Shown here in pieces: positions 24,954-62,708 of a DNA stretch of 64,000 bases; the first letter of the stretch is position 1; each line of letters starts with the position of its first letter. Where the stretch lies: positions 3,195 to 67,194 of the forward strand of contig JAUXAW010000001.1 of NCBI GenBank assembly GCA_030619715.1, given 5' to 3'. The notes under the pieces are model-generated. The model saw nothing but the letters and a program-made list of their open reading frames with translations. It had not been told where the DNA came from and did no database searches. A program made the position numbers and the translations under genes. This stretch comes from a candidate division WWE3 bacterium. Lineage in GTDB: Bacteria > Patescibacteriota > WWE3 > JAUXAW01.

Positions 24954-25594
24954 GCTGCTCCTCTCGCCTGCAAAACTGCCAACGGTGTTTTGAGGATAAT
25001 GTAAAAATCGTAGAGGATTGAACGGCGGTCGGCATAGGCCGCATCCATTTTAGCCCTCTCGACAAAACTAACCTCCGAGCGACCTCCAACCTGCCAAGGA
25101 CCAGTAATTCCCGGCTTAACTTTTAAGAGCCGCTCAACATACGGACGGCTCTCGGGAAAAACGCGCTGCTGGTCCCGTAACTCAAAAGGAAAATAGGCAC
25201 GCGGCCCGACCAAACTCATCTCTCCCCTCAAAACGTTGATAAACTGCGGAAACTCATCAACACTCACCCTCCGCATAAAATTCCCTCCTCCAATAATGCG
25301 GGGGTCGTTTTCCAATTTGTAGCTATTTCTCTTGTACTCCTCATAAAGTTCGGAATGTTGTAGCAGATAGGCGTGGGCGTTGGGAATCATTGAGCGAAAT
25401 TTGTACATCCGAAATTTTTTACTATCTTTGCCAAGTCTTTCGGGGATATCCGCAAACACCGGACCCGGAGAAATAAGTTTGATATAAACGGCAGTTAGGA
25501 GCATCAGGGGACTAAAGACTACCAAACCAACGATCGCACCCACGATGTCAATCAGGCGTTTGGTCTTGTCATAAAAGTCTGGTGTGTTCTTCAT
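24950..25594 (-). CDS. Polyprenyl-phosphate sugar-1-phosphate transferase (initiating phosphoglycosyltransferase, PglC/WbaP C-terminal-domain type).
   Basis: KFRSM. DEFPQFINVLRGEMSLVGPRA. PGITGPWQV. The start at 25594 has a GGAGGG RBS; the track start is 25696. Confidence 0.85.
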   Translation of the reverse strand: MKNTPDFYDKTKRLIDIVGAIVGLVVFSPLMLLTAVYIKLISPGPVFADIPERLGKDSKKFRMYKFRSMIPNAHAYLLQHSELYEEYKRNSYKLENDPRIIGGGNFMRRVSVDEFPQFINVLRGEMSLVGPRAYFPFELRDQQRVFPESRPYVERLLKVKPGITGPWQVGGRSEVSFVERAKMDAAYADRRSILYDFYIILKTPLAVLQARGAA

Positions 25595-26705
25595 AAAGGC
25601 CCTCCACAAAACCCTCAAGCTCTCTCTGGAAGCGCTTCTTACTAAATCTTGCCGCCTGCGCGTAGCAGTCTTCACTATGATACTGTGCCGTACCAAAGTG
25701 TTCGAGAGCCTTGGTTAGGGCCTCAACCGTTTGTGGATAGAAAAACTCCCCCGTTTTGCCTCCAATCACCGTTTCCAAAGCCCCACCAGCTTTAAAAGCG
25801 ATGACCGGTTTTCCCACCGCCTGTGCTTCCAGAGGCGTGATTCCGAAGTCCTCTTTCTGCGGAAAAATCAAGGCACGGCAGCCTTTATAGTAACTGACCA
25901 CCTCTTCGTCTGTCAACCGATCAAAGAGCTCGACTGTGGGTCCCGCTAATTTCTTCAGCCGTTCAAAATCTGGACCTTCGCCGATGATTTTGAGAGGAAG
26001 TTTGAGCCGGTTGCCGGCTTCGATCGCAATATCGATTTTTTTCCAGGCAGTCAGGCGAGAAACAATTAAATGGTAATCTGAATTAGCGACCGAGGGGTCC
26101 GCGAGCGGAACGTTAGGGTTCGGAGCCGATCGGAACCGATCCAAATCTACGAACGGGTAAATGATGTGCGAATCCCGACCGTAGTATTTTTTGATTCGCG
26201 CCTGCGGCGTCTTGGAGTTGGCGATAAAGTGGTCAACTCGTTGAGCAGCAGCGTAATCCCAAAGGCGGAAATAGGATAAAAAGGGATTTAAGAGGGATTT
26301 AAAGGGATAGGGAAAATTTTCAAAATAAGTTTGGGGTTCCCAAAACATTCGCGGTGGGGTATTCATATAGCAGATATGAAGCGTCTCCGGCCGTGTAATC
26401 ACCCCGTGGGCAAATCTCGTTGAAGATGACAAAACAACATCGTAACCTGTTAGATCAAAACTCTCAAAAGCAAGTGGATAGAGTGGGAAATAATGGCGGT
26501 AAAGTTTTTCCTTAAACGGCAGCTTCTGCATAAACGAAGTTTTGAGATTTGAGATTTGAGATTTCCACTGGGCGGAGGCCATGGATGTAAAAACGTCAGC
26601 TTTGGGGAACGTCTCGATCATTGCCATAAACAACCTCTCCGCTCCCCCATGTTGAATCAAATCATCATGAACCAAAGCGATTTTTATTTCAGTCATCGTC
26701 CCCAT
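25569..26705 (-). CDS. GT4-family glycosyltransferase.
   Basis: EDFGITPLEAQAVGKPVIA (E-x7-E region). Contains the in-frame heptamer repeat at 26538-26566 (KSQISNLK). Confidence 0.8.
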   Translation of the reverse strand: MGTMTEIKIALVHDDLIQHGGAERLFMAMIETFPKADVFTSMASAQWKSQISNLKTSFMQKLPFKEKLYRHYFPLYPLAFESFDLTGYDVVLSSSTRFAHGVITRPETLHICYMNTPPRMFWEPQTYFENFPYPFKSLLNPFLSYFRLWDYAAAQRVDHFIANSKTPQARIKKYYGRDSHIIYPFVDLDRFRSAPNPNVPLADPSVANSDYHLIVSRLTAWKKIDIAIEAGNRLKLPLKIIGEGPDFERLKKLAGPTVELFDRLTDEEVVSYYKGCRALIFPQKEDFGITPLEAQAVGKPVIAFKAGGALETVIGGKTGEFFYPQTVEALTKALEHFGTAQYHSEDCYAQAARFSKKRFQRELEGFVEGLYEEHTRLL

Positions 26706-30646: not shown

Positions 30647-31764
30647 ATCCCCTCGAATACTTTAAGGGTTTCTCGAGCCGCCTTCTCCCACGAAAACCGT
30701 TTCAAATTTTCAAAGCCCTTCTTAATCATTTCTGCTTTTAGTTTATCATCAGTTAAAATTCTCCGCATTGCTTCAGCAAGCTCCTTTATGTCGTCAGGAT
30801 CAACAAAAAGGGCCGCGTCTCCCCCCACCTCGGGCATAGAGGAGATGTTTGAGGTAATTACCGGACAACCACAGGCCTGGGCCTCAAGAATCGGCAAACC
30901 AAAACCTTCATAAAATGAGGGCAGGACAAAAAGGTCGGCTAGATTATAAAGGGCGGGCAAATCGGCCTCGAGGATAAAATCGGTAAAAATTATCTCTTTG
31001 TCCATTCCTAAATCTTCAATCACCTGAAAAATCTCCTTGTTTTTCCAGCCATAACTTCTCCCCCCGCCAATGACCAGTTTATGGGAAAGGTTGGTACCTT
31101 CCTTAAATCTTGAAAAGGCCCTAACCAACCCCGGAATATTTTTTCTCGGCTCCAAAACCCCTATAAATAGAATGAATTGGCGGGGGAGATTATATTTTGT
31201 TCTGATGCCAGAAAGTTTCTTTTGGTCTTCGACAACCCGAAATGCCAAGCTCGTTCCTAAATGTGTGACCGCGATTTTATCCTCAGGGACTTTTAAAATC
31301 TTGATCAAATCTTTTTTTGTACTTTGGGAAATGACGATAACCCTCTCGGTTTGTCTGACTGCTAGAGGTATAAGAGTCCGAAAATAGAGCTGTTTAATCC
31401 AAATATGCTTCTTCCGGTGCTTAAACCAAGTGAGGTCCAAAATAGCCACCACCTGCTTGCAAGTCTTAAACAAGGGAACGGTAAACGCGGGACCGTAGAA
31501 TATATCAACTTTCTCACGCTTTAAGTCAAAGGGTAAAAGTGTTTGCTCCCACAAAAGCCGCAACGCCCTATTGGAGGGAACAAATTTTAATTTAACCCGA
31601 GGATTGCCCTTAACTTCAAAATATTGGGCATTGAGATCGGAAACATAAAGCAGATACTGATTCCTAGTGTCAATCTTTAAAAGGGCGTTGACCAAGCTCC
31701 CTATATACCGCCCCATTCCGTGTTTTAAAGACTTCATCGCCAAAGTATTAATGGCTATTTTCAT
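30643..31764 (-). CDS. GT4-family glycosyltransferase.
   Basis: YEGFGLPILEAQACGCPVITSNISSMPEVGGDAA. Confidence 0.8.
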   Translation of the reverse strand: MKIAINTLAMKSLKHGMGRYIGSLVNALLKIDTRNQYLLYVSDLNAQYFEVKGNPRVKLKFVPSNRALRLLWEQTLLPFDLKREKVDIFYGPAFTVPLFKTCKQVVAILDLTWFKHRKKHIWIKQLYFRTLIPLAVRQTERVIVISQSTKKDLIKILKVPEDKIAVTHLGTSLAFRVVEDQKKLSGIRTKYNLPRQFILFIGVLEPRKNIPGLVRAFSRFKEGTNLSHKLVIGGGRSYGWKNKEIFQVIEDLGMDKEIIFTDFILEADLPALYNLADLFVLPSFYEGFGLPILEAQACGCPVITSNISSMPEVGGDAALFVDPDDIKELAEAMRRILTDDKLKAEMIKKGFENLKRFSWEKAARETLKVFEGI

Positions 31765-33242
31765 ACTTCCTCCTTAACTCCTAGCGAGGTGCCAACAAGG
31801 TACCAAAACAAAAAGGCAATTTTTGAGGCCCGAAAGATATCGGCAAAGACGGCGTTGGCCGCTAACCCGATGGTGACGGAAATTATGGCAAAGGCCAATA
31901 CCCTTGATTGGTGGTCTTCTAATCTTCTTACTTTCTTAAGCATCTCCGCCATAATTTTCCTAAGAAGGGCAATAAAAACGGCCAGCCCAAGTATCCCCGT
32001 TTCCCCCAGCAAGGTCGCGTACTCTCCGTCCAAACCAATGCCCACAGACCCCATTCCCCCTCCCAACAAAGGATTCTTCCTTACCTTAGCAAGCGCCCGG
32101 GGCCAAGTTTCACTAAGGCGCCAGCGTAAACTAGGATCCGCTTCCTTCACTTTTTCCAAAAGAAGAGAACCCCTCTCCTCAATCCCTTTTACGAAAGCTC
32201 TCCTTCTCTCATTAACCTCGTCCACAAAAACAGAAACTCTTTTTTTAATGTTACCGGCAAGATTAAAGGTTTCCTCGGGGACTCCCTCCTCCTCCTTCTC
32301 TTCCACAGCAGTTATGGGGAAAGACGGCTCTCTAGCTTCCTCTTGGAGTTCTTTTTCTTGCAGAATCTGCCTAGCCATTTCTTCTTCCCTAAAACTCTCA
32401 AAAGTTCCGGCCAAAAGTTGAAATCTCATAACGAGGGGTTTGGAAACAAAAAGGGGCATTATTAAAGTCATCAAGGCCAAAGCACCGACGGTTAACTTAT
32501 GCTTTAGTTCGCGGCGGGCTAAACTCAAACTAAGGACGGCCAAAAACGAACAAATAACCGGAAAGCGCGCTCCAGAAAAACCCATCGTCATTATGGCCGC
32601 CACCAAAGCGGCAAAATAAAAAAGTTTTAGCCTGCGGTTTTTGGTAATGACAAAGATACCGGCCGCAATCGGAATCAGAACGATCAAAAAGCCCGCCAGT
32701 TCATAAGGCCCGGAGAAACTAGCAAAGGCGCGGTCTGTTCCCTTAATATAAGTGTATTGGTAAAAACCGCCCCCGTAACCTCCCGCGGCGCCCGTAATTT
32801 GGAGCAGGGCCCAAGCGCTGATCAAAATACCGAGGGCTATTAAGACATTAAAACAGACAGAACGGGATTTCTTGGTAGGAGCGGCAGCGTAACCCAGATA
32901 AAAGAGAGCCGCGTACTCCACAAACCGAAGGACAAACAGATAACTGGAAACGGAAAGCTGGTTAAAAACGACGTTGTGCGTGGTGGAAATAAACATTAGA
33001 GAAAGCCAGCCGATAATCAAAATTGAAACGGGCGAAAACAGGGCCCCAAGAATTTTCTTTCGAAAATCTTCATCCCGCCTAAAGAGAACAAAGCCGAACA
33101 AAATGAGGATTAAAAGGAGAAAATCTTCAATCCGCACCGGAGTGGCAAAATTTGATATTTTGATCAGAGAAATCTTAGGGAAAAGGAGGACAAAAGCGAT
33201 GTAGCCAAGAACCAAGTACTGGTAAACTCTACTTTCCTGCAT
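31761..33242 (-). CDS. O-antigen ligase/Wzy-family polytopic membrane protein with a long charged cytoplasmic insert.
   Basis: Multi-TM protein. C-terminal GGGMGSVGIGLDGEYATLLGETGILG resembles the Wzy_C/O-antigen ligase motif. Confidence 0.6.
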   Translation of the reverse strand: MQESRVYQYLVLGYIAFVLLFPKISLIKISNFATPVRIEDFLLLILILFGFVLFRRDEDFRKKILGALFSPVSILIIGWLSLMFISTTHNVVFNQLSVSSYLFVLRFVEYAALFYLGYAAAPTKKSRSVCFNVLIALGILISAWALLQITGAAGGYGGGFYQYTYIKGTDRAFASFSGPYELAGFLIVLIPIAAGIFVITKNRRLKLFYFAALVAAIMTMGFSGARFPVICSFLAVLSLSLARRELKHKLTVGALALMTLIMPLFVSKPLVMRFQLLAGTFESFREEEMARQILQEKELQEEAREPSFPITAVEEKEEEGVPEETFNLAGNIKKRVSVFVDEVNERRRAFVKGIEERGSLLLEKVKEADPSLRWRLSETWPRALAKVRKNPLLGGGMGSVGIGLDGEYATLLGETGILGLAVFIALLRKIMAEMLKKVRRLEDHQSRVLAFAIISVTIGLAANAVFADIFRASKIAFLFWYLVGTSLGVKEEV

Positions 33243-40899: not shown

Positions 40900-42041
40900 A
40901 ATGACATATAGAAATTTTTGAGCTCGCCGGCAACCTTTTTTGCGTCAAACACATCTTCAGCCCTTGCCAATGATTTTTCACCAAGCATCTTTCTAAAATC
41001 TTCATCCACAATCAACCTCTCTATCGCCTCAGCAATAGCAACCGCATCTCCGGGTGGAACTAAAATTCCTGCTCCCCCCACAACTTCTGGAAGGGCGCCG
41101 CTCATCCCCGCTATTACCGGTTTACCACTGGCCATGCTTTCAATTAGCGCCATTCCAAATTGCTCCTGCCAGTTTTCCAAAGGGAAGCAGGGCAAAACAA
41201 AAACGCTGGCGCTAGAATGCAGCGCCGGCATCTCTTCGTATGGCACTTTACCCACGAAAACAACCTGTTCATCCAAACCCAATCTAGTTACAATTTGTTT
41301 TAAAATTCCTTCGCGAGGGCCTTCCCCCACAATTAACAACTTCAGACGCCGATCTGCCAACCGTGGTTGAAGAAGCAGCTTCTTAAAAGCGATTATCAAA
41401 TAGTCAAAACCTTTCTCCCAAACCAATCTTCCGATGCTCAGAATGATAAAATCGCCCGAGGAAATACCTAACCTAGGTTTGAAAATATCCAGGTTAATGC
41501 CATACGGCAAAACTTTAATCTTTTGTTCCTCTACCCCATCAATTAAAAGGGCCTCTTTGGCTTGCTCGGTTACGGCATGAAACAAATCCACATTGTTAAG
41601 AACTTCCTTTTTAAATGCCTTTTGCGCGGGATTAAATTCTCCCGTTAACGGAATGTTTTGCCAAACGGTGACCACAACTTTTTTTACTTTACCCGCCAGT
41701 TTTGCTTTGATCGCCTGATATGTGTAGTAATTAAAGGTTTCGGCGCTATGAGCAATATCAAAACCCTCTAATGCTTTTTCCAATCCTATCATCACTTGAC
41801 TGTCACCGAAAAACCGATTAAGCGCCGCTTGGTATTTGGAAGCCTTGCTAAAATCTGCCAACATGTACAACTGTCTCACCGGAAACTTAATTTTTGATAT
41901 CCTTCCTCTTGGTTTTTTACTCGTGAAACCGACAAGTTCAATCCCCCCACCAACCAACGGCTTGTAGTTTTGCATTTCGTATTCCCCCAAATCAGCCCCT
42001 CGAATTAGGGCAATTTTTTTCATCTCATCTTCTAACACCAA
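40896..42041 (-). CDS. GT4-family glycosyltransferase.
   Basis: ENWQEQFGMALIESMASGKPVIAGMSGALPEVVG. Confidence 0.75.
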   Translation of the reverse strand: MVLEDEMKKIALIRGADLGEYEMQNYKPLVGGGIELVGFTSKKPRGRISKIKFPVRQLYMLADFSKASKYQAALNRFFGDSQVMIGLEKALEGFDIAHSAETFNYYTYQAIKAKLAGKVKKVVVTVWQNIPLTGEFNPAQKAFKKEVLNNVDLFHAVTEQAKEALLIDGVEEQKIKVLPYGINLDIFKPRLGISSGDFIILSIGRLVWEKGFDYLIIAFKKLLLQPRLADRRLKLLIVGEGPREGILKQIVTRLGLDEQVVFVGKVPYEEMPALHSSASVFVLPCFPLENWQEQFGMALIESMASGKPVIAGMSGALPEVVGGAGILVPPGDAVAIAEAIERLIVDEDFRKMLGEKSLARAEDVFDAKKVAGELKNFYMSL

Positions 42042-43479
42042 CCAGATTGACTAAAATCTTTTTATCTTCTTCGTCAAACGCTCCCAGTAAGTAAAGCAGG
42101 CCAAAATAAATTGGCGGCGCGAGTAAGAGAGAAAAGAATAGGTGGCGGCCAGTTAGCAAAATAAAACCACCCATAATAAGGGCGGCCATCAGAGGTTTGA
42201 GTGCCATCACAACAAAATTAATTGAATAAAAATGTTTTGAAAAGTACCAAAGCACGAGCGTAAAGCCCAAAACCTCGGTTAAAAGAGTCGTTAAACTGGC
42301 ACCGATAAAACTTAACCCCAGCCCCCATGTTGGTATCAGAAATAAATTCAAACCTAAACTGACAATAACATTTAATGCCGTGATCGCCACTAAAACCTTC
42401 ATCTTACCCATTGAAGTTAAAGTTGAAGCGAATAAACTACTCACGAAAATAACGCCCACCGCCCAGATTAAAATTCTTAAAGAAGCGGCCGAGCGGATAA
42501 AATCCGGACCGTAGGCTAACTTAATAATCGGCTCGGCCAGAAGCGTTGTTCCCACGGCCATGGGAATTCCCAAAATGACAAGATATTTTAAGATTTTTTG
42601 AAAGGTTGAGTAGAATTTAGTTTTGTTTTCAAGATAGAGCCGTGAGAAAAGTGGAAAGGCGGCTCCGGTAACAATCGCCGGCACCATTTGCAGGGTGTCC
42701 ACAAATTTATAACTGGCCGAATACAACCCCACCGCAACCTCGTTGCCGGCTCCTATAATCGGCAATTTGGACAAAAGCACCATATCAGATCGGTGATAAA
42801 TTGTGATCAGGATATTAATTGCGGCAAAGGGAACCGCCTCTTTTAAAATTTGGCCTAAAAACGCCTTGTTTAATTTCAACCTTCCAAATTTAAACTTTTT
42901 GCCTATGGTAATCAGGGCGGTGATTAAAACGACTGCCGCCGCAAGTATTGCCACCCAGCCTAAGCCCACCACTCCGTAGCCCAAATATAAAGCAACCACC
43001 CCTCCCACCGTTAAAACAGCGCTATTGAGGATACCCAAAATAGCATTAAACTCCATTTTTTCGTAGGCCTGAAACAAAGAAGTTAGCAGAGAGGAGAAAG
43101 AGGAGAAAACCAAAGCCAAAGCCAGCAGATAAATAGTTTGTTCAACAACCTCGCTATAGCCAAGTAATTTGGTCACTAACCCGATTGAGAGAAGGACCAC
43201 CGCGGACAGACAGGCCTTCAAAACCAGCATGCTCCCTAAATAATAGCCCGTTTTGTCTCTGTAGCGAGCTACTTCTCGAACAAAAAGATTGTTTAGGCCC
43301 AACTCTGTAAAAACGCTGAACAGCCCGACCACGCTCCCGGCGATGGCGTATTCTCCCAACCCCAGGCTCCCTAATTTGCGAGCGGCGTAAACCGTAAAAA
43401 CAATCGTGAAGATTTTGGGAACTATACTGGCAAAGGTTAAGGCAATAGTGTTTTTAGCTAATCTTTTTGTGTTGTTCAT
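42025..43479 (-). CDS. wzx: Wzx-type oligosaccharide flippase (MOP/polysaccharide biosynthesis protein).
   Basis: 12-14 TM segments. N-terminus KNTIALTFASIVPKIFTIVFTVYAARKLG is typical of PST-family flippases. Confidence 0.75.
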   Translation of the reverse strand: MNNTKRLAKNTIALTFASIVPKIFTIVFTVYAARKLGSLGLGEYAIAGSVVGLFSVFTELGLNNLFVREVARYRDKTGYYLGSMLVLKACLSAVVLLSIGLVTKLLGYSEVVEQTIYLLALALVFSSFSSLLTSLFQAYEKMEFNAILGILNSAVLTVGGVVALYLGYGVVGLGWVAILAAAVVLITALITIGKKFKFGRLKLNKAFLGQILKEAVPFAAINILITIYHRSDMVLLSKLPIIGAGNEVAVGLYSASYKFVDTLQMVPAIVTGAAFPLFSRLYLENKTKFYSTFQKILKYLVILGIPMAVGTTLLAEPIIKLAYGPDFIRSAASLRILIWAVGVIFVSSLFASTLTSMGKMKVLVAITALNVIVSLGLNLFLIPTWGLGLSFIGASLTTLLTEVLGFTLVLWYFSKHFYSINFVVMALKPLMAALIMGGFILLTGRHLFFSLLLAPPIYFGLLYLLGAFDEEDKKILVNLVGVRR

Positions 43480-44590
43480 CGCAAAACTTCACCACGATAT
43501 CAACTATCTTTTTCGCCGCGGTCCCATCGCCGTAGGGGTTGACGGCCTTTGCCATTCGCTGGTAAGCCGCCTCATCTGACAAAAGGGTGCCGGTAATCTT
43601 AACGATCTTCTCCTTTTTCGTTCCGGCCAGGACGGCGGTTCCCGCTTCTATCCCTTCGGGCCTCTCGGTTGTTTCTCGCAAGACAACCACCGGCTTACCC
43701 AGCGAGGGGGCCTCTTCCTGAATTCCGCCCGAGTCGGTTAAGACTAAGTAACTTTCTTTCATCACCCTGACCATATCCTTGTAATTTAGGGGCTCAATCA
43801 GATGTACCCGGGGGTGGTTACCCAATTGTTCATAGGCCATTTTTCTAACATTTGGATTTGGATGCACGGGAAAAATAATTTCAACATCGTCAAAATTTGC
43901 CAAGATTTCTCTAACGGCTTCGTATATTTGCTTCATCCCCTTACTTAAATAGTTTTCTCGGCGATGAGCGGTCAGAAGAACTTTTCGGCTCTTATTATCA
44001 AGAATTGTTCTTAGTTGCTGGTTAGAAACCTCGTGTTTTTGGCCCGCAACCCACAGCAAAGCATCGATCACCGTATTTCCGGTGAGATGAATCTTTTTCT
44101 CATCAACCCCTTCCCTCAACAGATTACTTCTAGCCAATTCCGTCGGAGCAAAATAGAGCGAGCTGAGGGTATCGGTTATTCTGCGATTCATTTCTTCGGG
44201 AAAAGGATTATAAATATTGTGCGTTCTCAGCCCGGCTTCAACATGGCCAACCGGTATTTGGTTGTGAAAGGCGGCCAGAGCCGTCACCATTACGGTGGTT
44301 GTGTCTCCCTGAACCAAGACCAAATCCGGTTCCTCTTTGTACAAAACGTCTTCTACCCCACCCAGGATTCTGGCCGTAAGAAAAGCCAAAGTTTGATTAG
44401 GCGTCATCAGGTCCAAATCATAATCCGCTTTCAAGGAAAATGTATCCATCACCTGATCAAGCATTTCCCGGTGTTGGGCCGTCACCACCACTTTACTTTC
44501 AAGCGTTTTACGCCGGGCAAGTTCCCAAACAACCGGGGCCATCTTGATGGCCTCGGGACGAGTTCCAAATACAGAAATAGCCTTCATCAT
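43454..44590 (-). CDS. wecB: UDP-N-acetylglucosamine 2-epimerase (non-hydrolysing).
   Basis: N-terminus ISVFGTRPEAIKMAPVV. HVEAGLRT. 378 aa. Confidence 0.85.
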   Translation of the reverse strand: MMKAISVFGTRPEAIKMAPVVWELARRKTLESKVVVTAQHREMLDQVMDTFSLKADYDLDLMTPNQTLAFLTARILGGVEDVLYKEEPDLVLVQGDTTTVMVTALAAFHNQIPVGHVEAGLRTHNIYNPFPEEMNRRITDTLSSLYFAPTELARSNLLREGVDEKKIHLTGNTVIDALLWVAGQKHEVSNQQLRTILDNKSRKVLLTAHRRENYLSKGMKQIYEAVREILANFDDVEIIFPVHPNPNVRKMAYEQLGNHPRVHLIEPLNYKDMVRVMKESYLVLTDSGGIQEEAPSLGKPVVVLRETTERPEGIEAGTAVLAGTKKEKIVKITGTLLSDEAAYQRMAKAVNPYGDGTAAKKIVDIVVKFCDEQHKKIS

Positions 44591-44662: not shown

Positions 44663-45490
44663 TCATTTCCAGCCCCTCAAATCACGTCCGATTAATTTTT
44701 CCAAACTCTCAATATCTTTTCTAAAAACCTTACGCAACCTTTCCCGTTCAGACCTGCTCATCGGTGGGTAGGTTGCTTCCTTCCGATTGACCATTACATA
44801 GAGTCGTTGGATTCGATTGTAAAGATTAGCCCTTTTCAAAAAATCAATCAGTCCTCCGAGCCCCGCCTTCTCTAGAAATTTCCGCAGTTTAAATAGAACT
44901 ACCAAAAACCTAAACCGCACCTTCGCCGCCGGGTTAACTTTCTTGCCCAAAGATGGAGGAACAAAGCTAGAATCAACCCCTAAAAACTCGTACAAATCAC
45001 GGACGACGGTTCCGGGCCGGCTCTCAATATTATCAAATAAAATAATGTGTATCTTCTCCTGGCTGAATAAATCAAACCACCGAACGAGATACCTGTGATA
45101 AAAACCCTCCTCCAGATACTCGTCAATGCCCGCATCTTTATTAAAATTCAAAGCCCCCCACCAATAATGAGAGTAGGCCCGATCGACTGGGTTTCGCAAA
45201 CAGACAACCAACTTCGCTTCGGGGAAATGTTTCTTAATCCGCTTCGGGGCGTCTTCGTCACAAAGATAAGAGTTGCTGTACTCCCCTCTCACTCGTGGGC
45301 CGCCGCGCTCGGTAAACTGGCTTTCATACCAACTCATCCCTTTCTGGTAATACTTACTGAAAAATTCAATCTCTTTAATGTGAGGGACGCATATCTCCGG
45401 GTGCTCCCGCAAAACTTGGGCAATCCAGCTAGTCCCACTGCGAAAAGCACCGATGCCAATAAAGTCAACTTTGAAGGCTGTCATTTCCAA
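44663..45490 (-). CDS. Sulfotransferase-family protein.
   Basis: The 5'-PSB-like motif IGIGAFRSGTSWIAQVL (PAPS binding). 275 aa. Confidence 0.7.
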   Translation of the reverse strand: MEMTAFKVDFIGIGAFRSGTSWIAQVLREHPEICVPHIKEIEFFSKYYQKGMSWYESQFTERGGPRVRGEYSNSYLCDEDAPKRIKKHFPEAKLVVCLRNPVDRAYSHYWWGALNFNKDAGIDEYLEEGFYHRYLVRWFDLFSQEKIHIILFDNIESRPGTVVRDLYEFLGVDSSFVPPSLGKKVNPAAKVRFRFLVVLFKLRKFLEKAGLGGLIDFLKRANLYNRIQRLYVMVNRKEATYPPMSRSERERLRKVFRKDIESLEKLIGRDLRGWK

Positions 45491-47007
45491 GAACTCAAGT
45501 CCCGCTCAATTAATTTCTCAAGTTTTTCGACATCTTTTCTAAATAACCTCTTTAATCTCAACCGCGTCTCCTCCCGCATCGATGGATAATCAAAGGGTTT
45601 TTTATTCACTTTGCCATACAAATTGGACAAAGAAGGGTTGCTAATCAATTCCCTGACCAAGAAACCCAACCCCAAGGCCCGCAAAGCCTTCATCGGCAAA
45701 TTAACCAAATCGGCCAACAATTTGAATCTTACTTTCTTAGCTCGGTTCACCCTTCTCGTCAAAACTGAAGGCGCAAAGTTCTGACCCACCCCTAAAAAAC
45801 CGTAGACATCTTTCAGAACTTCCTGAGGGCGTTCTTTGATATCATCGAACAGAACAATTTTAATTTTCTCTCTGGGAAACACGTCGTAAAATCTTTTAAG
45901 CTGCTTATAATAGAAACCCCTCTTTATATACTGATCATCTTTTTCCAACTCTCCCTCAAAAGTTTCGGCCAAGTCGCCCGACTCAAAATTAGCTTTTTTC
46001 CACCAGTAAAACGAATAGACCGTATCCTCCGGTCTTCGCAGGCAGGCAATTAATTTAACGTTGGGAAAGTGGCGTTTGATTAGTCCGCAAGACTCGGGAA
46101 AAAACATATAGTGGGTGGTAAACTCGCCTCTAACCGCCCCTTTTGGAGCCTTCTCAAAGAAAGAACTGTACCGTTCCCAGCCTTTTGAATAATTGCTCCT
46201 CTTTTTCTCAAAATCAAAAAAACAGATCTCCTTCCGAGAAGGAAGATATATCTCGGGGTGCTCGCGTAAACACTCGGTCAACCAAGTGGTTCCGCTTCTC
46301 ACTGCTCCAATCCCTATAAAATCCAGGTTTAACAGCTCTCGCCGCCCAATTTTATGCCTTATTTCCTCGATAACAAACGGCATCACCTTTTGTGACAAAT
46401 GAATCGAATCTCGGAAGTATTCTATCTTCGTCAACCCGTCTCGATCTACCAACCTGTCAAAAATCGAAATAGCCTTCAGACTATTTTCTTCTATTAGTTC
46501 ACTAAGACGCCTGTTAAATTGGTGCACAACACGGTTTCTCTCGAGACAGGTGCCATACGTGGGATATTCCCCGCCCTTCACTATAAACCGAGTCGAGGGT
46601 GGAACATGCCAAACCAACACCCCGTAACCCATCTGACTGACCTCTTTAATAACCGAAAAATATCGATCAACACATTCATTCACAACATCCTCTGTGCCCC
46701 TGTTCTGTTTCTCCGCTTGCTTAAGCAAATGCGCCCGGCAGTCTATCTCACCAAAGCAGAATAAAACCCTACTGCCAATGGGTATAGTGTTCAAAACAGC
46801 AAACAGTTTCTCTCTACCTCTCGTCCTCGTTCCACTTCGGGAAAGGTTGTAGGCCAAAACAGGTCCTAGTCGATATGTCCTAAAGAGGGAAATTAGATCC
46901 TCGTGCGGCTCGGGCCACGAGGGTTGCACAAAAGGAACGCCCGAGAACAGATTGGCGTGGCTGTCTCCAATGCAATGAATAACATCCCTTCCGCTTCTCA
47001 TAATCAT
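45481..47007 (-). CDS. SGNH/GDSL hydrolase domain fused to a sulfotransferase domain.
   Basis: N-terminal block I CIGDSHANLF and block V DSIHLS (DxxH). C-terminal IGIGAVRSGTTWLTECL sulfotransferase PAPS motif. Confidence 0.65.
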   Translation of the reverse strand: MIMRSGRDVIHCIGDSHANLFSGVPFVQPSWPEPHEDLISLFRTYRLGPVLAYNLSRSGTRTRGREKLFAVLNTIPIGSRVLFCFGEIDCRAHLLKQAEKQNRGTEDVVNECVDRYFSVIKEVSQMGYGVLVWHVPPSTRFIVKGGEYPTYGTCLERNRVVHQFNRRLSELIEENSLKAISIFDRLVDRDGLTKIEYFRDSIHLSQKVMPFVIEEIRHKIGRRELLNLDFIGIGAVRSGTTWLTECLREHPEIYLPSRKEICFFDFEKKRSNYSKGWERYSSFFEKAPKGAVRGEFTTHYMFFPESCGLIKRHFPNVKLIACLRRPEDTVYSFYWWKKANFESGDLAETFEGELEKDDQYIKRGFYYKQLKRFYDVFPREKIKIVLFDDIKERPQEVLKDVYGFLGVGQNFAPSVLTRRVNRAKKVRFKLLADLVNLPMKALRALGLGFLVRELISNPSLSNLYGKVNKKPFDYPSMREETRLRLKRLFRKDVEKLEKLIERDLSSWK

Positions 47008-48062
47008 CTACGCCTGCTTCTGAAATCCTCATATATCAGAATAATCTGGTTGGCTCTATTGTGATAGGTGTGGTCAGCCAACACTTTCCGCCGGCCGGCC
47101 TCGATAATCGGAGTTCTCTTTTCGGGATTCCGAATGTAGTAGTCAATTTTCTCAAACCAATCATCGGTATTTTTCGCAATCACCAGCTCGTTCTCGTTAA
47201 AATACTTTCTAAGCACCCTAACATTATCACAAATCTCAAACCCACCCGAAGCAGGAATCTTAAAAGTTCTCTCATTAAAGTCCGAGCCAAACTTTCTTTG
47301 GTGGTCCTCGTGGATATTCAACGAAATAGTCGAAGAAGAATAAACCTTTCGCTCGTCACCAAGCGGTAATTGAAACTTCCTTATGTGCTTCAGGGGCTCA
47401 ATATTGAAGTATTGACCTGCTTTTTGAACATATCCCAACAACCTATTACCCAAAGTCCAATCACTTCCATGGACCTTGACATCGTACTTTTTCATCAGCG
47501 GAAAAAGGTGCTTTTTAACAAACTCTCGCTTGCTGGGCAGGAGACTACCAACAAAGGAAATGTCGGCCTTATATTTGTCATCGGGTTCGTAAAAATATTT
47601 TTTAACATTTGCCGCCAACAGAATTGTGTGAAATGGGTAGCCGGTGGTTTTGGTGAACCCATCCATCGAAGGGTCATCCTGCTCTAACCAATGAAAGAAC
47701 ACATCACCGGCCAAACCGTCCCTTATCAATTTAATTAGTTCGGGTTTGCTCTCCAAAGCTTGAGCCCCAAACTGGTCGGTTTGATGTTTCCAAGGGGAGA
47801 TTTGATTAAAAAATACAAGCCTTTCTTTTCTATACTTTTTCAACAATTCCAAGTCTAAAAACTTCAAGTTGTACTGATTCAAAGAAGAAATAAAAATATC
47901 CGGTCGATACTCTTCCAAAACTTCTTTCAGGTCATCATTGGACGTCAACGGTCTAAACCGATGGCCCAGGTCCTCAAAAGCATCTTTGTAACCCTCGTAG
48001 ACAAATCTTCCCGCATAGACGGTTTCCAAGGAGGGTATTTGGTATAAAATGTTTAAATTCAT
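47004..48062 (-). CDS. CgeB-like/DUF3880 glycosyltransferase-family protein.
   Basis: C-terminal KNTDDWFEKIDYYIRNPEKRTPIIEAGRRKVLADHTYHNRANQI is typical of CgeB-family GT1-like proteins. Confidence 0.55.
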   Translation of the reverse strand: MNLNILYQIPSLETVYAGRFVYEGYKDAFEDLGHRFRPLTSNDDLKEVLEEYRPDIFISSLNQYNLKFLDLELLKKYRKERLVFFNQISPWKHQTDQFGAQALESKPELIKLIRDGLAGDVFFHWLEQDDPSMDGFTKTTGYPFHTILLAANVKKYFYEPDDKYKADISFVGSLLPSKREFVKKHLFPLMKKYDVKVHGSDWTLGNRLLGYVQKAGQYFNIEPLKHIRKFQLPLGDERKVYSSSTISLNIHEDHQRKFGSDFNERTFKIPASGGFEICDNVRVLRKYFNENELVIAKNTDDWFEKIDYYIRNPEKRTPIIEAGRRKVLADHTYHNRANQIILIYEDFRSRRR

Positions 48063-48682
48063 CTTTTCCGAAACCCCTCCCAGACAAAGGGGTACGAGAA
48101 AATTACGTTGTGAGTTCTATCTATTTCTTTGACTAAGTCCCTTCGCATCTCTGCCGCTCGGGGGACAAAACGATGAAACTGCACCTGAAGATTTTCCACA
48201 CGATTAATTAGGCCGCTGTCAACCATTCTTTTTAACAAACGGTATTCCCCACCTTCAATGTTGACGGACATCAAGTCAATCTTCTCGCCGGCGCAATGTT
48301 CCTTCATAAATTCTACAATGTCAACAAAACTAACTTCCTCTCTCCTAGCCGATTGTACAAAAACCGAGCTGGCATCCCCACTGACGCCAATCGGCCTCCT
48401 TTCTGTTTTGTCTGATAGACCAATGTTGTAGACTTGAACCTTCTTATTATTTTCATACTTATTTTCTAACACGCGGTAATATGACCTAACCGGCTCAAAG
48501 ATGTAGGTACGAGGGTTATACCTAGATATAATCTTGTCCGAAAAGTTTCCAATGTAGCCGCCGACATCGAATACTAAACTCTCACTCTTGAGATTGTAAT
48601 CAACTAGACACGTATGATCTCCATCGTCCCAAAACCACCTGCAAAGGTTTATCTTGGCAACCAATCCCCAGAAATTTTTCAT
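48059..48682 (-). CDS. FkbM-family methyltransferase.
   Basis: VFDVGGYIGNFSDKI...TYIFEPV (FkbM MT domain). Confidence 0.65.
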   Translation of the reverse strand: MKNFWGLVAKINLCRWFWDDGDHTCLVDYNLKSESLVFDVGGYIGNFSDKIISRYNPRTYIFEPVRSYYRVLENKYENNKKVQVYNIGLSDKTERRPIGVSGDASSVFVQSARREEVSFVDIVEFMKEHCAGEKIDLMSVNIEGGEYRLLKRMVDSGLINRVENLQVQFHRFVPRAAEMRRDLVKEIDRTHNVIFSYPFVWEGFRKR

Positions 48683-49817
48683 AACACATCCCGGAAAATA
48701 TTAGCGTAATCAAACTGCCGAGCGTACTCCCGTGCCCTTAAACGATATTCCTGGTTTCTCTCCGAACCCATCAACGTAATTACGCCCGTAATGACGCCCT
48801 TAACGTCTTCGCCAATGATCAGGCCACACCTTCGATTTTCAATTTCCCTAGCATTCCAGGGAATATTGGTCAACAAAACGGGGACGCCGCAGGCCAAGTA
48901 TTTTTTCACCTTCCCCGGGTCGGCGTAATAGGTCCAAGTGTCCAAGTTCTTAACATAGGGGGCAATAGCCAGACAACTTTTGGCAATCTCCTTTTCCAGT
49001 TCCTCATCACTTTTGATTTTTCCCAGAAAATGACAGTATTTTTCAACATTTAATTCCTTGGCGAGCCTCTCCAATTCCAACCGGTAACTTCCTCCACCGA
49101 TTATCTTAAACCGAAAATCGGGCATCTTTTTGACAATCTCCGGAATCGCCCTGATTACCAACTGCACCCCCTGTTTGGGCAGTAGATGCCCCATAAAGAC
49201 CAAGGTGTTTTTATCGCACTCCTCGTAAGAGTATTTCTTAACTCGGTCCACCCAAACGCCATAGGGAACGATTTTTTGCTTTCGATAATCACTTTTCTTA
49301 ATGCCCAAAAATTTCTCTCTCGCTTCGACCATTCGCGGTGAAAGGTCCCACATCTCATCGGCATTTTTGTAACCAAGGACATTGATAAAATGATAAATTT
49401 TGTTTTTCCAGCCACTCTCAAATCTATCTTGGGGAACAAAGTCAATTGCCCAAAAGATAGTTTTTTTAACCCGCCCCAGAAGCCTTACCGTAAGACCAAA
49501 GAAAACACACAGACCGTCCATCCCCACGTAAGTGTCCCAGACAATTTTTGAACCCAGCAGCCACCTGAGAGTAAAGAAAAATTCTTTAAGATAGATGACC
49601 GGCTCGGGCAAACCTTTGAAATCTCGAGTTCTTTCCTCTCTGTAAACCCCACCCTCTTTATACCAAGTATAATAACTACATCTGTCCGGGGCATCGAAGA
49701 AACTGTGTCGAATGTGCAAAACATTGGAATACTTTTTGGAGTTGAGAAAGATAACCAAATCATCGTCGGGCTGGGTAACAAATTTATGAGAAACGACGAC
49801 GACATTCTTGGCCAGCT

Positions 49818-49821
<4 letters not shown>
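48679..49821 (-). CDS. GT4-like glycosyltransferase.
   Basis: C-terminal GT-B Rossmann domain (FLGKIKSDEELEKEIAKSCLAIAPY...GVPVLLTN). Confidence 0.65.
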
Positions 49822-51585
<1,764 letters not shown>

Positions 51586-51598
51586 TTAATAATCGCGG

Positions 51599-52267
51599 CT
51601 AACTATTATTTTTAATGATTGCCGCATTGTAGGACAAAAAGGGCCGCAAAAACGGCAAACCTTCCATAATTTTTTCGTAAATTTTAAATAGCTTAACGAA
51701 TCTTTTGGGATAGTTGTGGCACTCAAAGCACTTAAACTTCGCTTGAGGAAAGATGGCACGAACCAGTTTCTTAAAATAATTCTGTTTGAAGTGCTGGTGG
51801 CCACGCAGCAAAGTCATATAGGGATACAATAATGGGTTGTAGCGGTTCGCTTCGACAATGACAACAGAACCACCTGTTTTACAAACTCGTTTTAACCCTT
51901 CTAAGGCATGTCTGTGTTTCTCGTAACTCTGGTGTTCCTCATCAATATGATGCAAAACATCGTGGGCAAAGACAAAGTCAAACTGGTTTTCGCCAAAAGG
52001 GATCTCTGAGATGCCCGCCTTTTTGAATTCCAAACCCTTAATATTCTTTATTCTTTCGTGTTCAAAGATATCAATGCCGGAGGTTGCGAGGCCATACTCG
52101 TTGATGAAAATCTCCGCATCAAACCCCCCACCGCACCCGACATCCAAAATCTTCCCGCCGCCGGCAAAATCAAAACCAAGTTTATTAAAAATATCATCCC
52201 GATACTGATTTCCTGTGTTAATCATGGTCCAAGAGTATTCTAACATAGACAAGGGATTGACTCTCAT
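51599..52267 (-). CDS. Class I SAM-dependent methyltransferase.
   Basis: KILDVGCGGGFDAEIFINEYG (motif I). Confidence 0.8.
   Translation of the reverse strand: MRVNPLSMLEYSWTMINTGNQYRDDIFNKLGFDFAGGGKILDVGCGGGFDAEIFINEYGLATSGIDIFEHERIKNIKGLEFKKAGISEIPFGENQFDFVFAHDVLHHIDEEHQSYEKHRHALEGLKRVCKTGGSVVIVEANRYNPLLYPYMTLLRGHQHFKQNYFKKLVRAIFPQAKFKCFECHNYPKRFVKLFKIYEKIMEGLPFLRPFLSYNAAIIKNNS
52108..52226. repeat. Direct repeat copy 1 (~119 bp), the 5' end of the methyltransferase gene.
   Basis: About 85% identical to 53031-53148. The two copies flank the nucleotidyltransferase::APS-kinase gene. Confidence 0.8.
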
Positions 52268-52292
52268 GTAGAATAAGAGTTAGTGGGGTAAG

Positions 52293-53030
52293 ATGAAGTA
52301 TTCACTGTTTATCGGCCGGTGGCAACCTTTTCACAAGGGCCACAAAATGCTGATCAATGAAGTTCTCAAGGAGAAAAAGCCTGCTCTCATCGCTATCAGA
52401 GATACTGAAATATCGGAGGAAAATCCGTACACTATCGAGGAACGTAGGAAGATGATCAAAGAAGAGTACGGAGATAGCGTAAAGATAATCACCATCCCGG
52501 ATATAGGGGAGATCTGTTACGGTCGAAGGGTTGGATACAAGATAAGAAGAATTCGCTTGGATAACCAGACAGAGGAGATATCAGGAGCCAAGATAAGAGA
52601 TTCACAAAAAAGGGTTATTTGGCTTACAGGCAATATGGGTGCAGGGAAAACATCTCTTGCTTATCTTCTTAAAGACAGGTTGAATGCGGTTGTTTTGGAT
52701 GGCGATGAGATGCGAGCATCAATCTCGCTGGGAGCAGGTTTTAGCAAAAAGGACAGGAACGAACATAATTTAAGAGTAGCACGGCTGGCAAAAATTCTTC
52801 ACGCCCAGGGGCACAATGTTGTTGTGGCGGTCATCGCACCATTTAGGGAAACGAGAAAAAAGATTAATGATATCTGTGATCCCTATTGGATTTATGTGTG
52901 TGGCGGAGCAACGGGGAAAGATAAGCCCTACGAACCGCCGGAGAATCCCGATGTGGTTATTGATCCTTTGTCTGAAAGTTTAAGCGAAAGCCTGGAGAAA
53001 ATCATTGAGGAGGTGGGGAAAATTACATAG
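52293..53030 (+). CDS. Compact NMNAT/cytidylyltransferase-like nucleotidyltransferase domain fused to adenylylsulfate (APS) kinase. Candidate minimal PAPS synthase.
   Basis: N-domain has FIGRWQPFHKGH (H-x-G-H) and EISGAKIRDS (ISxTxIR-like). C-domain has VIWLTGNMGAGKTSLAYLL (P-loop), LDGDEMR, FSKKDRNEHNLRVARLAKIL and VVAVIAPFRETR, the APS kinase (CysC) motifs. Confidence 0.7.
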   Translation: MKYSLFIGRWQPFHKGHKMLINEVLKEKKPALIAIRDTEISEENPYTIEERRKMIKEEYGDSVKIITIPDIGEICYGRRVGYKIRRIRLDNQTEEISGAKIRDSQKRVIWLTGNMGAGKTSLAYLLKDRLNAVVLDGDEMRASISLGAGFSKKDRNEHNLRVARLAKILHAQGHNVVVAVIAPFRETRKKINDICDPYWIYVCGGATGKDKPYEPPENPDVVIDPLSESLSESLEKIIEEVGKIT

Positions 53031-53190
53031 AAATCTCCGCATCAAACCCCCCGCCGCAACCCACATCCAAAATTTTCCCACCTCTTTGGAAGTCAAAGCC
53101 AAGTTTATTAAAAATATCGTCCCGATACTGGTTTCCCGTGCTAATCATACTCGAAAGCATTTTAGCATAAAAACCCTTCAAAAAAACTTG
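53031..53190 (-). pseudogene. Truncated duplicate of the 5' end of the SAM methyltransferase gene (direct repeat copy 2).
   Basis: Encodes MISTGNQYRDDIFNKLGFDFQRGGKILDVGCGGGFDAEIS, against MINTGNQYRDDIFNKLGFDFAGGGKILDVGCGGGFDAEIF in the intact gene. It then terminates. Confidence 0.7.
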
Positions 53191-53261
53191 AAGTCTCATA
53201 GTAGATATGGTAGTATGTTTGCGCCGGAACCTTAACAACTCAGTTAGACAGGGGGAGACAG

Positions 53262-54766: not shown

Positions 54767-54810
54767 TGGAAGTATTTTAACACAGACAGAAGAGGCGATT
54801 CTCGTGTAAA

Positions 54811-62120: not shown

Positions 62121-62127
62121 ATGGACC

Positions 62128-62622: not shown

Positions 62623-62708
62623 TCCTAAATCACCCCCTATCGTTTTCCAGCATTTATTCTAATCCTCTAAAACGCCCCTGTCAACCCGTCAACCAGAACC
62701 ACTGACAT

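What the first reader, a model, noticed from the sequence alone, without database searches (positions are those of the whole stretch)
44663..47007. Two sulfotransferase-domain proteins, one fused to an SGNH/GDSL hydrolase, inside the glycan locus. Predicts a sulfated and possibly O-acylated surface glycan.
Both proteins carry the PAPS 5'-phosphosulfate binding motif (RSGTSW/RSGTTW). The larger one has an N-terminal SGNH domain (GDSH block I, DxxH block V). Carbohydrate sulfotransferases embedded in a Wzx/Wzy-type locus are uncommon in bacteria, and not typical of CPR-like organisms. The SGNH fusion is an unusual architecture: acyl-esterase or O-acetyltransferase plus sulfotransferase in one polypeptide.
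Basis: partly seen in the sequence, partly recalled or inferred. Interest (0 to 1): 0.65.

Follow-up and report, generated by a model that had tools for sequence, protein, structure and literature searches.

The report
Sulfotransferase pair, one fused to SGNH
Two adjacent genes in a surface-sugar gene cluster of an uncultivated, probably CPR/Patescibacteria bacterium encode sulfate-adding enzymes, one uniquely fused to an acetyl-handling (SGNH) domain, and an APS-kinase gene next door would make the sulfate donor PAPS if APS is available, so the cell probably makes a sulfated surface sugar.

Summary

The genes lie in a ~25-gene minus-strand operon with a priming transferase, Wzx, a Wzy-like protein and about 15 glycosyltransferases. 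A divergent gene at the operon head encodes a compact nucleotidyltransferase-APS kinase, a family whose named members are all CPR.

A syntenic metagenomic locus carries the same cassette with three standalone sulfotransferases and a full PAPS synthase.

No other protein combined both domains among the best 120 of 149 word-index hits, or among the top 150 of 1.84 billion representatives.

Best reading: cytoplasmic tailoring of the lipid-linked repeat unit, with two sulfations plus O-acyl transfer or removal.

Verdict: a new variant of a known kind. The closest known system is the cyanobacterial synechan xss cluster. Interest is moderate.

The parts
45481..47007 (-). 508-aa fusion protein. The SGNH domain (res 1-225) joins a PAPS-type sulfotransferase domain (res 226-508) with no linker.
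   Evidence: ORF. Pfam. Domain boundary from phmmer of the two halves. Junction '...EEIRHKIGRRELLNLDFIGIG' is in frame. No TM segment.
46333..47007 (-). SGNH-fold domain. Motifs: GDSH (Ser16) at 46957-46968, Gly48 at 46864-46866, GEID in place of GxND at 46741-46752, DSIH (Asp200/His203) at 46399-46410.
45481..46332 (-). Sulfotransferase domain of the fusion. Motifs: 5'-PSB R237-SGTTW at 46282-46299, K259-E260 (putative base) at 46228-46233, 3'-PB R324...S332 at 46012-46038.
   Evidence: Pfam PF00685 54.2 bits. PDB 3rnl 7e-30 and 3-OST-1 3e-7, with alignments. Family conservation. Coordinates.
44663..45490 (-). Standalone sulfotransferase ST-A (275 aa from the TTG start; an ATG at residue 3 is an alternative start). 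Motifs: RSGTSW at 45425-45442, K39-E40 at 45371-45376, R99...S107 at 45170-45196. It is 45% identical to the fusion's ST domain.
   Evidence: The exact 275-aa sequence is not in the protein collection, so the deposited start may differ.
52293..53030 (+). 245-aa protein with an NMNAT-like nucleotidyltransferase (res 2-76) and an APS kinase (res ~100-245). It is the likely source of PAPS and is transcribed divergently from the operon head.
   Evidence: Pfam APS_kinase 89.9 bits and CTP_transf_like 28.1 bits. NCBIfam. PDB profile: APS kinase 8a8h 4.9e-24, archaeal NMNAT 2.6e-10. Family of 883 hits. Best promoter-like site at 52246-52274.
47004..52267 (-). Upstream part of the tailoring cassette: MT11 (51599-52267), NAD epimerase/dehydratase (50638-51582), GT2 (49818-50654), GT1 (48679-49821), FkbM methyltransferase (48059-48682), Glyco_trans_1_2 (47004-48062). 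Adjacent genes overlap by 4-17 nt, apart from a 16-nt gap before the first gene (MT11).
   Evidence: Epimerase, GT2, GT1 and GT1_2 are 84/62/73/76% identical to the syntenic genes of L001.
43454..44590 (-). UDP-GlcNAc 2-epimerase, immediately downstream of ST-A.
   Evidence: Pfam Epimerase_2 420.5 bits.
42025..43479 (-). Wzx-type flippase.
   Evidence: Pfam Polysacc_synt 135.3 bits. About 12 hydrophobic segments.
31761..33242 (-). Wzy/O-antigen-ligase-like membrane protein (493 aa).
   Evidence: No Pfam hit. Weak IctB-family hit at 3.9e-7. About 10 hydrophobic segments plus a large loop.
24950..25696 (-). Priming phosphoglycosyl transferase (Bac_transf), at the distal end of the same-strand gene array.
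   Evidence: Pfam 191.7 bits.

Best explanation
The two genes are cytoplasmic tailoring enzymes of a Wzx/Wzy-type surface-glycan pathway in a CPR (Patescibacteria) bacterium.

Proposed pathway:
1. The undecaprenyl-phosphate-linked repeat unit is started by the Bac_transf enzyme and built by the many GT1 and GT2 enzymes.
2. It is decorated on the cytoplasmic face before Wzx flips it.
3. ST-A and the C-terminal domain of the fusion each move sulfate from PAPS onto a sugar hydroxyl. They use the Arg of the 5'-PSB loop, the R...S 3'-phosphate motif and a Glu general base, as heparan-sulfate sulfotransferases do.
4. PAPS comes from the divergently transcribed nucleotidyltransferase-APS kinase.
5. 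The N-terminal SGNH domain is a working Ser16-His203-Asp200 acyl-enzyme catalyst. It changes the O-acyl state of the same intermediate.

My lean on the SGNH domain is that it O-acetylates from acetyl-CoA, as the Asn-less SGNH-like domain of CASD1 does. Hydrolysis is the second option. The product would then be a sulfated and probably O-acetylated and O-methylated glycan.

Shown here: domain identities, motifs, fold, operon context, synteny, uniqueness of the fusion.
Inferred: the substrate, the direction of the SGNH reaction, PAPS supply, and the sulfated product.
For: - Sulfotransferase profile hits are well above cut-off.
- The PDB alignment places R237 on the catalytic Lys of the 3-OST-1 'RKGGT' loop and E260 on the 'NEVHFFD' Glu.
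- KE..FF and LRnPxDxxYS are conserved across 54 family members. Arg replaces Lys at the 5'-PSB position in 17 of 54.
- Neither sulfotransferase has a TM segment or a signal-like N-terminus.
- The operon holds Bac_transf, Wzx, a Wzy-like protein, about 15 GTs, methyltransferases and sugar epimerases.
- Syntenic locus L001 has Epimerase-GT2-GT1-...-GT1_2-...-ST-ST-ST at 60-84% identity, plus a canonical ATP-sulfurylase/APS-kinase gene.
- A Wzx-ST fusion exists in the same ST subfamily (P0150).
- The APS-kinase gene sits at the operon head. Its family lies beside glycan or ST loci elsewhere.
- The SGNH fold and the triad are conserved.
- SGNH-family members sit inside glycan loci and are fused to methyltransferases, a GT10 domain or TPR repeats.
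- L001 has a membrane Acyl_transf_3 gene that the window lacks, while the window has the SGNH domain. This fits a replacement of the O-acetylation function.
- Precedents exist for Ser-His-Asp acetyl-CoA-dependent O-acetyltransferases: CASD1, whose SGNH-like domain lacks G and N (PMC4510713), and CsaC (PMC7501274).
Against: - No biochemical data exist for any member of either subfamily.
- The SGNH Pfam score is below the gathering cut-off.
- The closest structural neighbours are esterases: sialate O-acetylesterase, isoamyl-acetate esterase and PAF-AH.
- No canonical ATP sulfurylase is in the 64-kb window, so PAPS supply is incomplete as seen.
- The fusion is a singleton from one contig. It cannot be confirmed by a second sequence.
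- The locus encodes no acetyltransferase that would give an esterase a substrate. It also gives no direct evidence for acetyl-CoA use.
Confidence: 0.6

Rival explanations
1. Deacylate-then-sulfate coupling, the logic of heparan-sulfate NDST. The SGNH domain is an esterase that removes an acyl group from the position, or from a neighbouring position, that the fused sulfotransferase then sulfates. The two steps are channelled within one polypeptide.
For: - The two domains are joined with no linker.
- The ST domain is homologous to the NST domain of NDST1 (7.5e-4) and to 3-OSTs.
- Other partners of the SGNH family (methyltransferases, GT10) also cap hydroxyls.
Against: - No acetyltransferase gene in the locus would install the group to be removed.
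- The block III oxyanion Asn is replaced by an invariant Ile. The transferase CASD1 also lacks the block II Gly and block III Asn.
- The syntenic relative sulfates without any SGNH partner.
Confidence: 0.25
2. The fusion is an artefact or a very recent accident. A single-base sequencing or assembly error, or a recent indel, merged two adjacent genes, so the organism really has a separate SGNH protein and a separate sulfotransferase.
For: - The protein is a one-member cluster from one contig.
- No other fusion was seen among the 120 listed hits of the word-index search of 5.8 billion clusters, or among the top 150 of 1.84 billion representatives.
- Standalone versions of both halves are common.
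Against: - The reading frame is uninterrupted across the junction.
- The junction lies exactly where standalone STs begin, 5-8 residues before DFIGIG.
- There is no compositional break.
- Even if the genes were separate, they would still be adjacent and co-transcribed, so the functional inference changes little.
Confidence: 0.08
3. The sulfotransferases act on something other than the locus glycan, such as a lipid, a small molecule or a protein tyrosine. Their position in the glycan operon would then be incidental.
For: - The Arg-type 5'-PSB loop (RSGT) also occurs in non-carbohydrate sulfotransferases. This point rests on my own knowledge of TPST and Stf0 and was not tested here.
- Substrate cannot be read from sequence.
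Against: - The genes have 4-10-nt overlaps with flanking GT and sugar-epimerase genes.
- Synteny with GT genes is conserved at 60-84% identity.
- A Wzx-ST fusion exists in the same subfamily.
- The best solved relatives after 3rnl are carbohydrate sulfotransferases. Aryl SULTs have E>0.01.
Confidence: 0.07

Closest known systems
Synechan (xss) cluster of Synechocystis sp. PCC 6803: a Wzx/Wzy exopolysaccharide locus with two sulfotransferases, XssA and XssE (PMC8205485)
   Same: Both are Wzx/Wzy-type loci with many glycosyltransferases and two PAPS-type sulfotransferase genes embedded among them. In both, sulfation is presumed to occur on the cytoplasmic repeat unit (window).
   Different: - The host is a CPR bacterium, not a cyanobacterium.
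- One sulfotransferase is fused to an SGNH domain.
- The locus has its own APS-kinase gene.
- No PCP/OPX or XssQRS-type regulator was seen.
Heparan-sulfate sulfotransferases (3-OST-1/3/5, and the NST domain of NDST1)
   Same: The ST domain aligns over ~180 residues (E 3e-7 to 7e-4). The 5'-PSB loop, the Glu base in the 'E-x-x-F-F-D' segment and the 3'-PB R...S motif are all in register. NDST1 also couples an acyl-removing domain to a sulfotransferase in one chain.
   Different: - Arg replaces Lys in the 5'-PSB loop.
- The protein is bacterial and cytoplasmic, not Golgi-resident.
- The partner domain is an SGNH Ser hydrolase/transferase, not the NDST N-deacetylase.
- Only the ST domain is homologous. 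The coupling logic is an analogy.
PDB 3rnl, bacterial 'Sulfotransferase' (structural-genomics entry, function unassigned)
   Same: It is the best solved relative. It aligns end to end with the ST domain (res 229-508, E 7e-30), including the C-terminal 'LE.LI.RDLS.W' tail.
   Different: It is standalone, has Lys in the PSB loop and has no known substrate.
SGNH/GDSL hydrolase superfamily. Esterases: sialate O-acetylesterase 7pzg, PAF-AH, Ape1. Transferases: PatB, OatA-C, OafB-SGNH, XOAT1, CASD1.
   Different: - The block III Asn is replaced (invariant GEID).
- There is no signal peptide or partner AT3/MBOAT domain, so it must act in the cytoplasm.
- Identity to any solved structure is 7-19%.
- It forms its own subfamily, which Pfam recognises only below the cut-off.

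Membership tests
PAPS-dependent sulfotransferase superfamily (Pfam PF00685/PF13469) | Profile score above the curated cut-off | tested here: met
   ST-A scores 53.6 and 63.4 bits. The fusion scores 54.2 and 48.1 bits. Cut-offs are 22 and 27.
PAPS-dependent sulfotransferase superfamily | 5'-phosphosulfate-binding loop ([KR]-x-G-T-[ST]) after the first strand | tested here: met
   R17-SGTSW and R237-SGTTW align with 3rnl 'AKCGTSS' and 3-OST-1 'RKGGTRA'. The position is K in 37 and R in 17 of 54 family members.
PAPS-dependent sulfotransferase superfamily | 3'-phosphate-binding motif (R-x7-S after a β-strand) | tested here: met
   R324-RPEDTVY-S332 and R99-NPVDRAY-S107. The family consensus is LRnPxDxxYS.
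Carbohydrate (heparan-sulfate-type) sulfotransferases | Glu general base in the segment that aligns with 3-OST-1 'NEVHFFD' | tested here: met
   K259-E260-ICFFD and K39-E40-IEFFS. 'KE..fF' is conserved in the family. That this Glu is the catalytic base in 3-OST-1 rests on my own knowledge.
PAPS-dependent sulfotransferase superfamily | PAPS-dependent sulfuryl transfer to an acceptor | not testable with these tools
   This needs an enzyme assay.
SGNH/GDSL hydrolase superfamily | α/β/α SGNH fold | tested here: met
SGNH/GDSL hydrolase superfamily | Block I GDS(L) with the nucleophilic Ser | tested here: met
   G14-D15-S16-H17 is invariant in 40 sequences and sits at the end of β1.
SGNH/GDSL hydrolase superfamily | Block II Gly after strand 2 | tested here: met
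   G48 is invariant, directly after strand 42-46. The block definition is quoted in PMC4510713.
SGNH/GDSL hydrolase superfamily | Block III GxND Asn after strand 3 | tested here: not met
   After strand 80-84 the family has an invariant G86-E87-I88-D89. No Asn is present in either possible register.
SGNH/GDSL hydrolase superfamily | Block V DxxH before the last helix | tested here: met
   D200 (>=90% conserved) and H203 (invariant), directly before helix 206-220.
SGNH/GDSL hydrolase superfamily | Pfam Lipase_GDSL_2 score above the gathering cut-off | tested here: not met
   20.4-23.1 bits against 32.9, although profile positions 1-174 of 178 are covered.
Wzx/Wzy-dependent glycan locus | Priming phosphoglycosyl transferase, Wzx flippase and Wzy polymerase in one gene array | tested here: inconclusive
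   Bac_transf (191.7 bits) and Wzx (135.3 bits) are clear. The Wzy call rests only on ~10 hydrophobic segments with a large loop and a weak IctB-family hit. No PCP or chain-length regulator was identified.
Adenylyl-sulfate kinase (CysC) - the 52293-53030 gene | APS-kinase profile and structural match | tested here: inconclusive
   Pfam scores 89.9 bits against a cut-off of 21.1. NCBIfam apsK scores 93.7, below its cut-off of 138.7. PDB APS kinases match at E 4.9e-24, and Foldseek gives TMt 0.7-0.79.

The most novel reading that the evidence does not exclude
The 508-aa protein is a bacterial functional analogue of heparan-sulfate NDST. A Ser-hydrolase domain strips an acyl group and hands the freed position directly to a rigidly attached sulfotransferase. 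In addition, the neighbouring 245-aa protein is a minimal PAPS synthase, in which a ~100-residue HxGH nucleotidyltransferase does the ATP-sulfurylase step. Together they would give metabolically reduced CPR cells a self-contained route to sulfated surface glycans.
Probability: 0.12. Interest if true: 0.75.

Novelty: new variant of a known kind. Interest (0 to 1): 0.45.

Why it matters
Sulfated polysaccharides have been described as essentially a cyanobacterial speciality among bacteria (PMC8205485). This locus, its syntenic relative and the widespread compact APS-kinase family suggest otherwise. Uncultivated CPR bacteria may commonly sulfate their surface glycans. These bacteria live attached to other cells and have very reduced metabolism.

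A charged, sulfated and acylated surface could matter for host attachment, for phage receptors and for metal binding.

The SGNH-sulfotransferase fusion links two tailoring chemistries in one chain. The SGNH subfamily it belongs to has no characterised member, is recurrently fused to methyl-, fucosyl- and now sulfo-transferases, and is a tractable target for enzymology.

Tried and rejected
- NCBIfam gave no hit for either sulfotransferase.
- My sixth query covered the C-terminal half of the fusion by mistake, so it said nothing about the SGNH domain.
- The one genome-contig scan, run with the fusion, returned only a 38%-identical gammaproteobacterial SGNH-domain locus (L003). It did not return the window's own genome.
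Taxonomy instead rests on GlyRS relatives.
- The afdb50 fold library was unavailable.
- phmmer of the C-terminal half of a 468-aa SGNH-family member against the PDB found nothing. Only the profile search gave weak class I methyltransferase hits, E 0.0017-0.1.
- Promoter and terminator scans were not above shuffled expectation.
- GC content shows no foreign-DNA signature over the fusion.
- Rfam and tRNA scans of the window were empty.
- Literature searches for a sulfotransferase in CPR, or for an SGNH-sulfotransferase fusion, found nothing relevant.
Full report
**1. The observation**

- Pfam calls Sulfotransfer_1 and Sulfotransfer_3 in both, well above the curated cut-offs. The scores are 53.6/63.4 and 54.2/48.1 bits against cut-offs of 22/27.
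- The two sulfotransferase domains are 45% identical paralogues.
I verified the coordinates by translation: RSGTSW 45425-45442, RSGTTW 46282-46299, GDSH 46957-46968, DSIH 46399-46410.

**2. The sulfotransferase domains**

The best solved relative is the bacterial sulfotransferase 3rnl (E 7e-30), which aligns from residue 229 to the C-terminus. Next come heparan-sulfate 3-O-sulfotransferases (3e-7 to 2e-4) and the N-sulfotransferase domain of NDST1 (7.5e-4). Cytosolic aryl sulfotransferases are marginal (E>0.01).

In those alignments:
- R237 lies on the Lys of the 3-OST-1 'RKGGT' loop.
- K259-E260 of 'KEICFFD' lies on 'NEVHFFD'.
- R324...S332 lies on the 3'-phosphate motif.

Across 54 family members, 'KE..fF' and 'LRnPxDxxYS' are conserved. 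The PSB position is Lys in 37 members and Arg in 17, so Arg is a normal variant. Neither protein has a hydrophobic segment. They are soluble and cytoplasmic, as PAPS use requires.

**3. The SGNH domain**

The sequence evidence is weak. Lipase_GDSL_2 scores 20.4-23.1 bits against a cut-off of 32.9, although it covers nearly the whole profile.

A 40-sequence alignment of residues 1-225 with homologues shows these invariant residues: G14, D15, S16, H17, G48, G86, E87, I88, D89, H203. D200 is conserved in at least 90%.

- O-acetyltransferases: PatB (12.5), OatA (11.7), OafB (11.1), XOAT1 (9.8).

I mapped the blocks onto the predicted strands using the definitions quoted in PMC4510713. Ser follows β1, Gly follows β2 and DxxH precedes the last helix. 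The GxND Asn after β3 is replaced by an invariant GEID. So this is a catalytically equipped, atypical SGNH subfamily that Pfam does not yet model well.

**4. The fusion**

phmmer with the two halves against the 120 listed homologues shows 68 hits (the fusion itself included) to the N-domain and 53 to the ST domain. Only the query itself has both.

An exhaustive HMMER scan of 1.84 billion representatives gave 33,534 hits, 1132 of them at E<=1e-30. A protein with both domains at ~35-40% identity would rank at the top of that list. None of the top 150 has both.

The junction has no linker. The last SGNH helix runs into 'GRRELLNLDFIGIG', and standalone relatives start 5-8 residues before DFIGIG. 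The frame is clean and the GC content is unremarkable. The protein is a one-member cluster from one 89,659-bp contig, so an indel artefact cannot be excluded. I put that at about 8%.

**5. What the two families do elsewhere**

The SGNH subfamily occurs in three forms:
- Alone, at ~280 aa.
- Fused to FkbM or Methyltransf_11 domains, a GT10 fucosyltransferase domain, or TPR repeats.
- Fused to an unclassified C-terminal domain that weakly matches class I methyltransferases.

Two contexts examined are ABC-transporter glycan loci:
- In a Levybacteria genome the gene sits between a GT2 and a GT11, downstream of Wzm and Wzt (+Wzt_C).
- In another genome the 468-aa SGNH-methyltransferase-like fusion lies directly after Wzt_C and before a DUF268 methyltransferase and a GT11.

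The family is therefore a recurrent companion of enzymes that decorate glycan hydroxyls. The ST subfamily includes a Wzx-flippase-sulfotransferase fusion (P0150).

**6. The locus**

From 52267 down to about 23109, all genes are on the minus strand. Most overlap by a few bases. In order, they are:
- Methyltransf_11, NAD epimerase/dehydratase, GT2, GT1, FkbM methyltransferase, Glyco_trans_1_2.
- SGNH-ST, ST-A, UDP-GlcNAc 2-epimerase, Wzx.
- A long run of GT1 and GT2 genes.
- A 589-aa membrane-anchored protein with a weak DUF3863 hit.
- A 493-aa protein with ~10 hydrophobic segments and an IctB-family hit, which looks like Wzy.
- Bac_transf and a DUF4012 protein.

**7. Synteny**

The closest ST relative, P0002 (71%), lies on a 42-kb metagenomic contig (L001). 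Its cassette is Epimerase (84%), GT2 (62%), GT1 (73%), a DUF268 methyltransferase, Acyl_transf_3, Glyco_trans_1_2 (76%), a methyltransferase, ST (71%), ST (59%), and the ST-A orthologue (60%). A canonical PUA_2/ATP-sulfurylase/APS-kinase gene follows.

So the sulfation cassette is conserved and linked to PAPS synthesis, while the tailoring genes vary. Where L001 has a membrane O-acyltransferase and an extra methyltransferase, the window has the SGNH domain fused to the first ST.

**8. PAPS supply and host**

Divergent from the operon head, 52293-53030(+) encodes a 245-aa protein.
- Its C-terminal two-thirds is an APS kinase: Pfam 89.9 bits, PDB APS kinases at 4.9e-24, Foldseek TMt 0.7-0.79.
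- Its first ~75 residues match archaeal NMN adenylyltransferases, including an HxGH motif.
- The family has 883 hits. The top 120 are 61-77% identical and ~245-280 aa long. Every taxon-specific source name among them is a CPR group (Woese-, Taylor-, Zambryski-, Parcubacteria).
- In two of three other contexts examined, it sits next to a glycan cassette like ours or near a sulfotransferase (not).

GlyRS from the window has only CPR/Patescibacteria proteins among its taxon-specific named relatives, at 61-65% identity. No ATP sulfurylase was found in the window.

**9. Mechanism**

Most likely, the repeat unit is tailored on the cytoplasmic face before flipping. That means two sulfations from PAPS, plus an SGNH-catalysed change in O-acylation through a Ser16 acyl-enzyme.

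The direction of the SGNH reaction is open. I lean to O-acetyl transfer, for four reasons:
- The locus encodes no acetyltransferase that would give an esterase its substrate.
- The syntenic relative has an AT3 O-acyltransferase instead of the SGNH domain.
- The oxyanion Asn is lost, and the transferase CASD1 likewise lacks the block II Gly and block III Asn. Its isolated SGNH-like domain transfers acetyl from acetyl-CoA through acetyl-Ser (PMC4510713).
- Cytoplasmic Ser-His-Asp capsule O-acetyltransferases exist (CsaC, PMC7501274).

**10. Comparison, novelty and verdict**

The closest known system is the synechan xss cluster, a Wzx/Wzy locus with two sulfotransferases (PMC8205485). Three things are new here:
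- The CPR host.
- The dedicated compact APS-kinase gene.
- The SGNH-sulfotransferase architecture.

Both domains belong to known superfamilies. The SGNH domain fails two of six membership tests: it lacks the block III Asn and scores below Pfam's cut-off.

Verdict: the finding is real and its interpretation largely right. It is a new variant of a known kind, of moderate interest.

Noticed in passing
window 52293-53030 (+): A compact 245-aa protein joins an NMNAT-like HxGH nucleotidyltransferase (~100 aa) to an APS kinase. The family has 883 hits, is highly conserved (top 120 at 61-77% identity), and its taxon-specific source names are all CPR groups. The top Foldseek matches are bifunctional ATP-sulfurylase/APS-kinases (2gks, 1m8p, 3cr8) with both domains aligned. 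It could be a minimal PAPS synthase, but the N-domain's nearest sequence relatives are NMN adenylyltransferases.
   Followed up: partly
window 52108-52232 and 53031-53155: A 125-nt direct repeat (84% identical) flanks the APS-kinase gene. The copies are the 5' end of the methyltransferase gene 51599-52267. The second copy survives as an 85-aa ORF fragment (53023-53280, -). This looks like a scar of insertion or recombination that placed the kinase gene at the operon head.
   Followed up: partly
window 54811-60430: A second, smaller glycan-related group lies here: PMT_2-TPR membrane glycosyltransferase (54811-56376, +), GT2 (56324-57127, -), a second Wzx-like Polysacc_synt_3 protein (57081-58322, -) and a second DUF4012 protein (58526-60430, +). 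DUF4012 proteins thus bracket the whole glycan region (the other is 23109-24953).
   Followed up: no
window 36028-37797 (-): A 589-aa protein with one N-terminal hydrophobic segment and only a weak DUF3863 hit is embedded among the glycosyltransferases. It is probably extracytoplasmic. Its function is unknown.
   Followed up: no
window 53262-53996 (+) and 54008-54820 (-): Two ORFs of 244 and 270 aa between the two glycan groups have no Pfam or NCBIfam hit.
   Followed up: no
window 7202-7642 (-): A PD-(D/E)XK nuclease (PDDEXK_3, 113 bits) gene sits between ftsA (7645-8880) and ftsZ (6095-7186), inside an otherwise standard dcw/cell-division cluster (mraZ-rsmH-PBP-murA-like-mur ligase-mraY-ftsW-murG at 11631-21025).
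   Followed up: no
window 60735-63965 (-): Possible defence- or regulator-like genes at the window end: Schlafen AlbA_2 + HATPase_c_4 (60735-62120) and AAA_14 + DUF4143 (62709-63965).
   Followed up: no
L004/L005 8001-8855; L006 8001-9407: Members of the SGNH subfamily lie in Wzm/Wzt (Wzt_C) ABC-transporter glycan loci, next to GT11 fucosyltransferase, DUF268 methyltransferase and a kinase-like protein. This hints at a role in non-reducing-end capping, comparable to WbdD-type terminators.
   Followed up: partly
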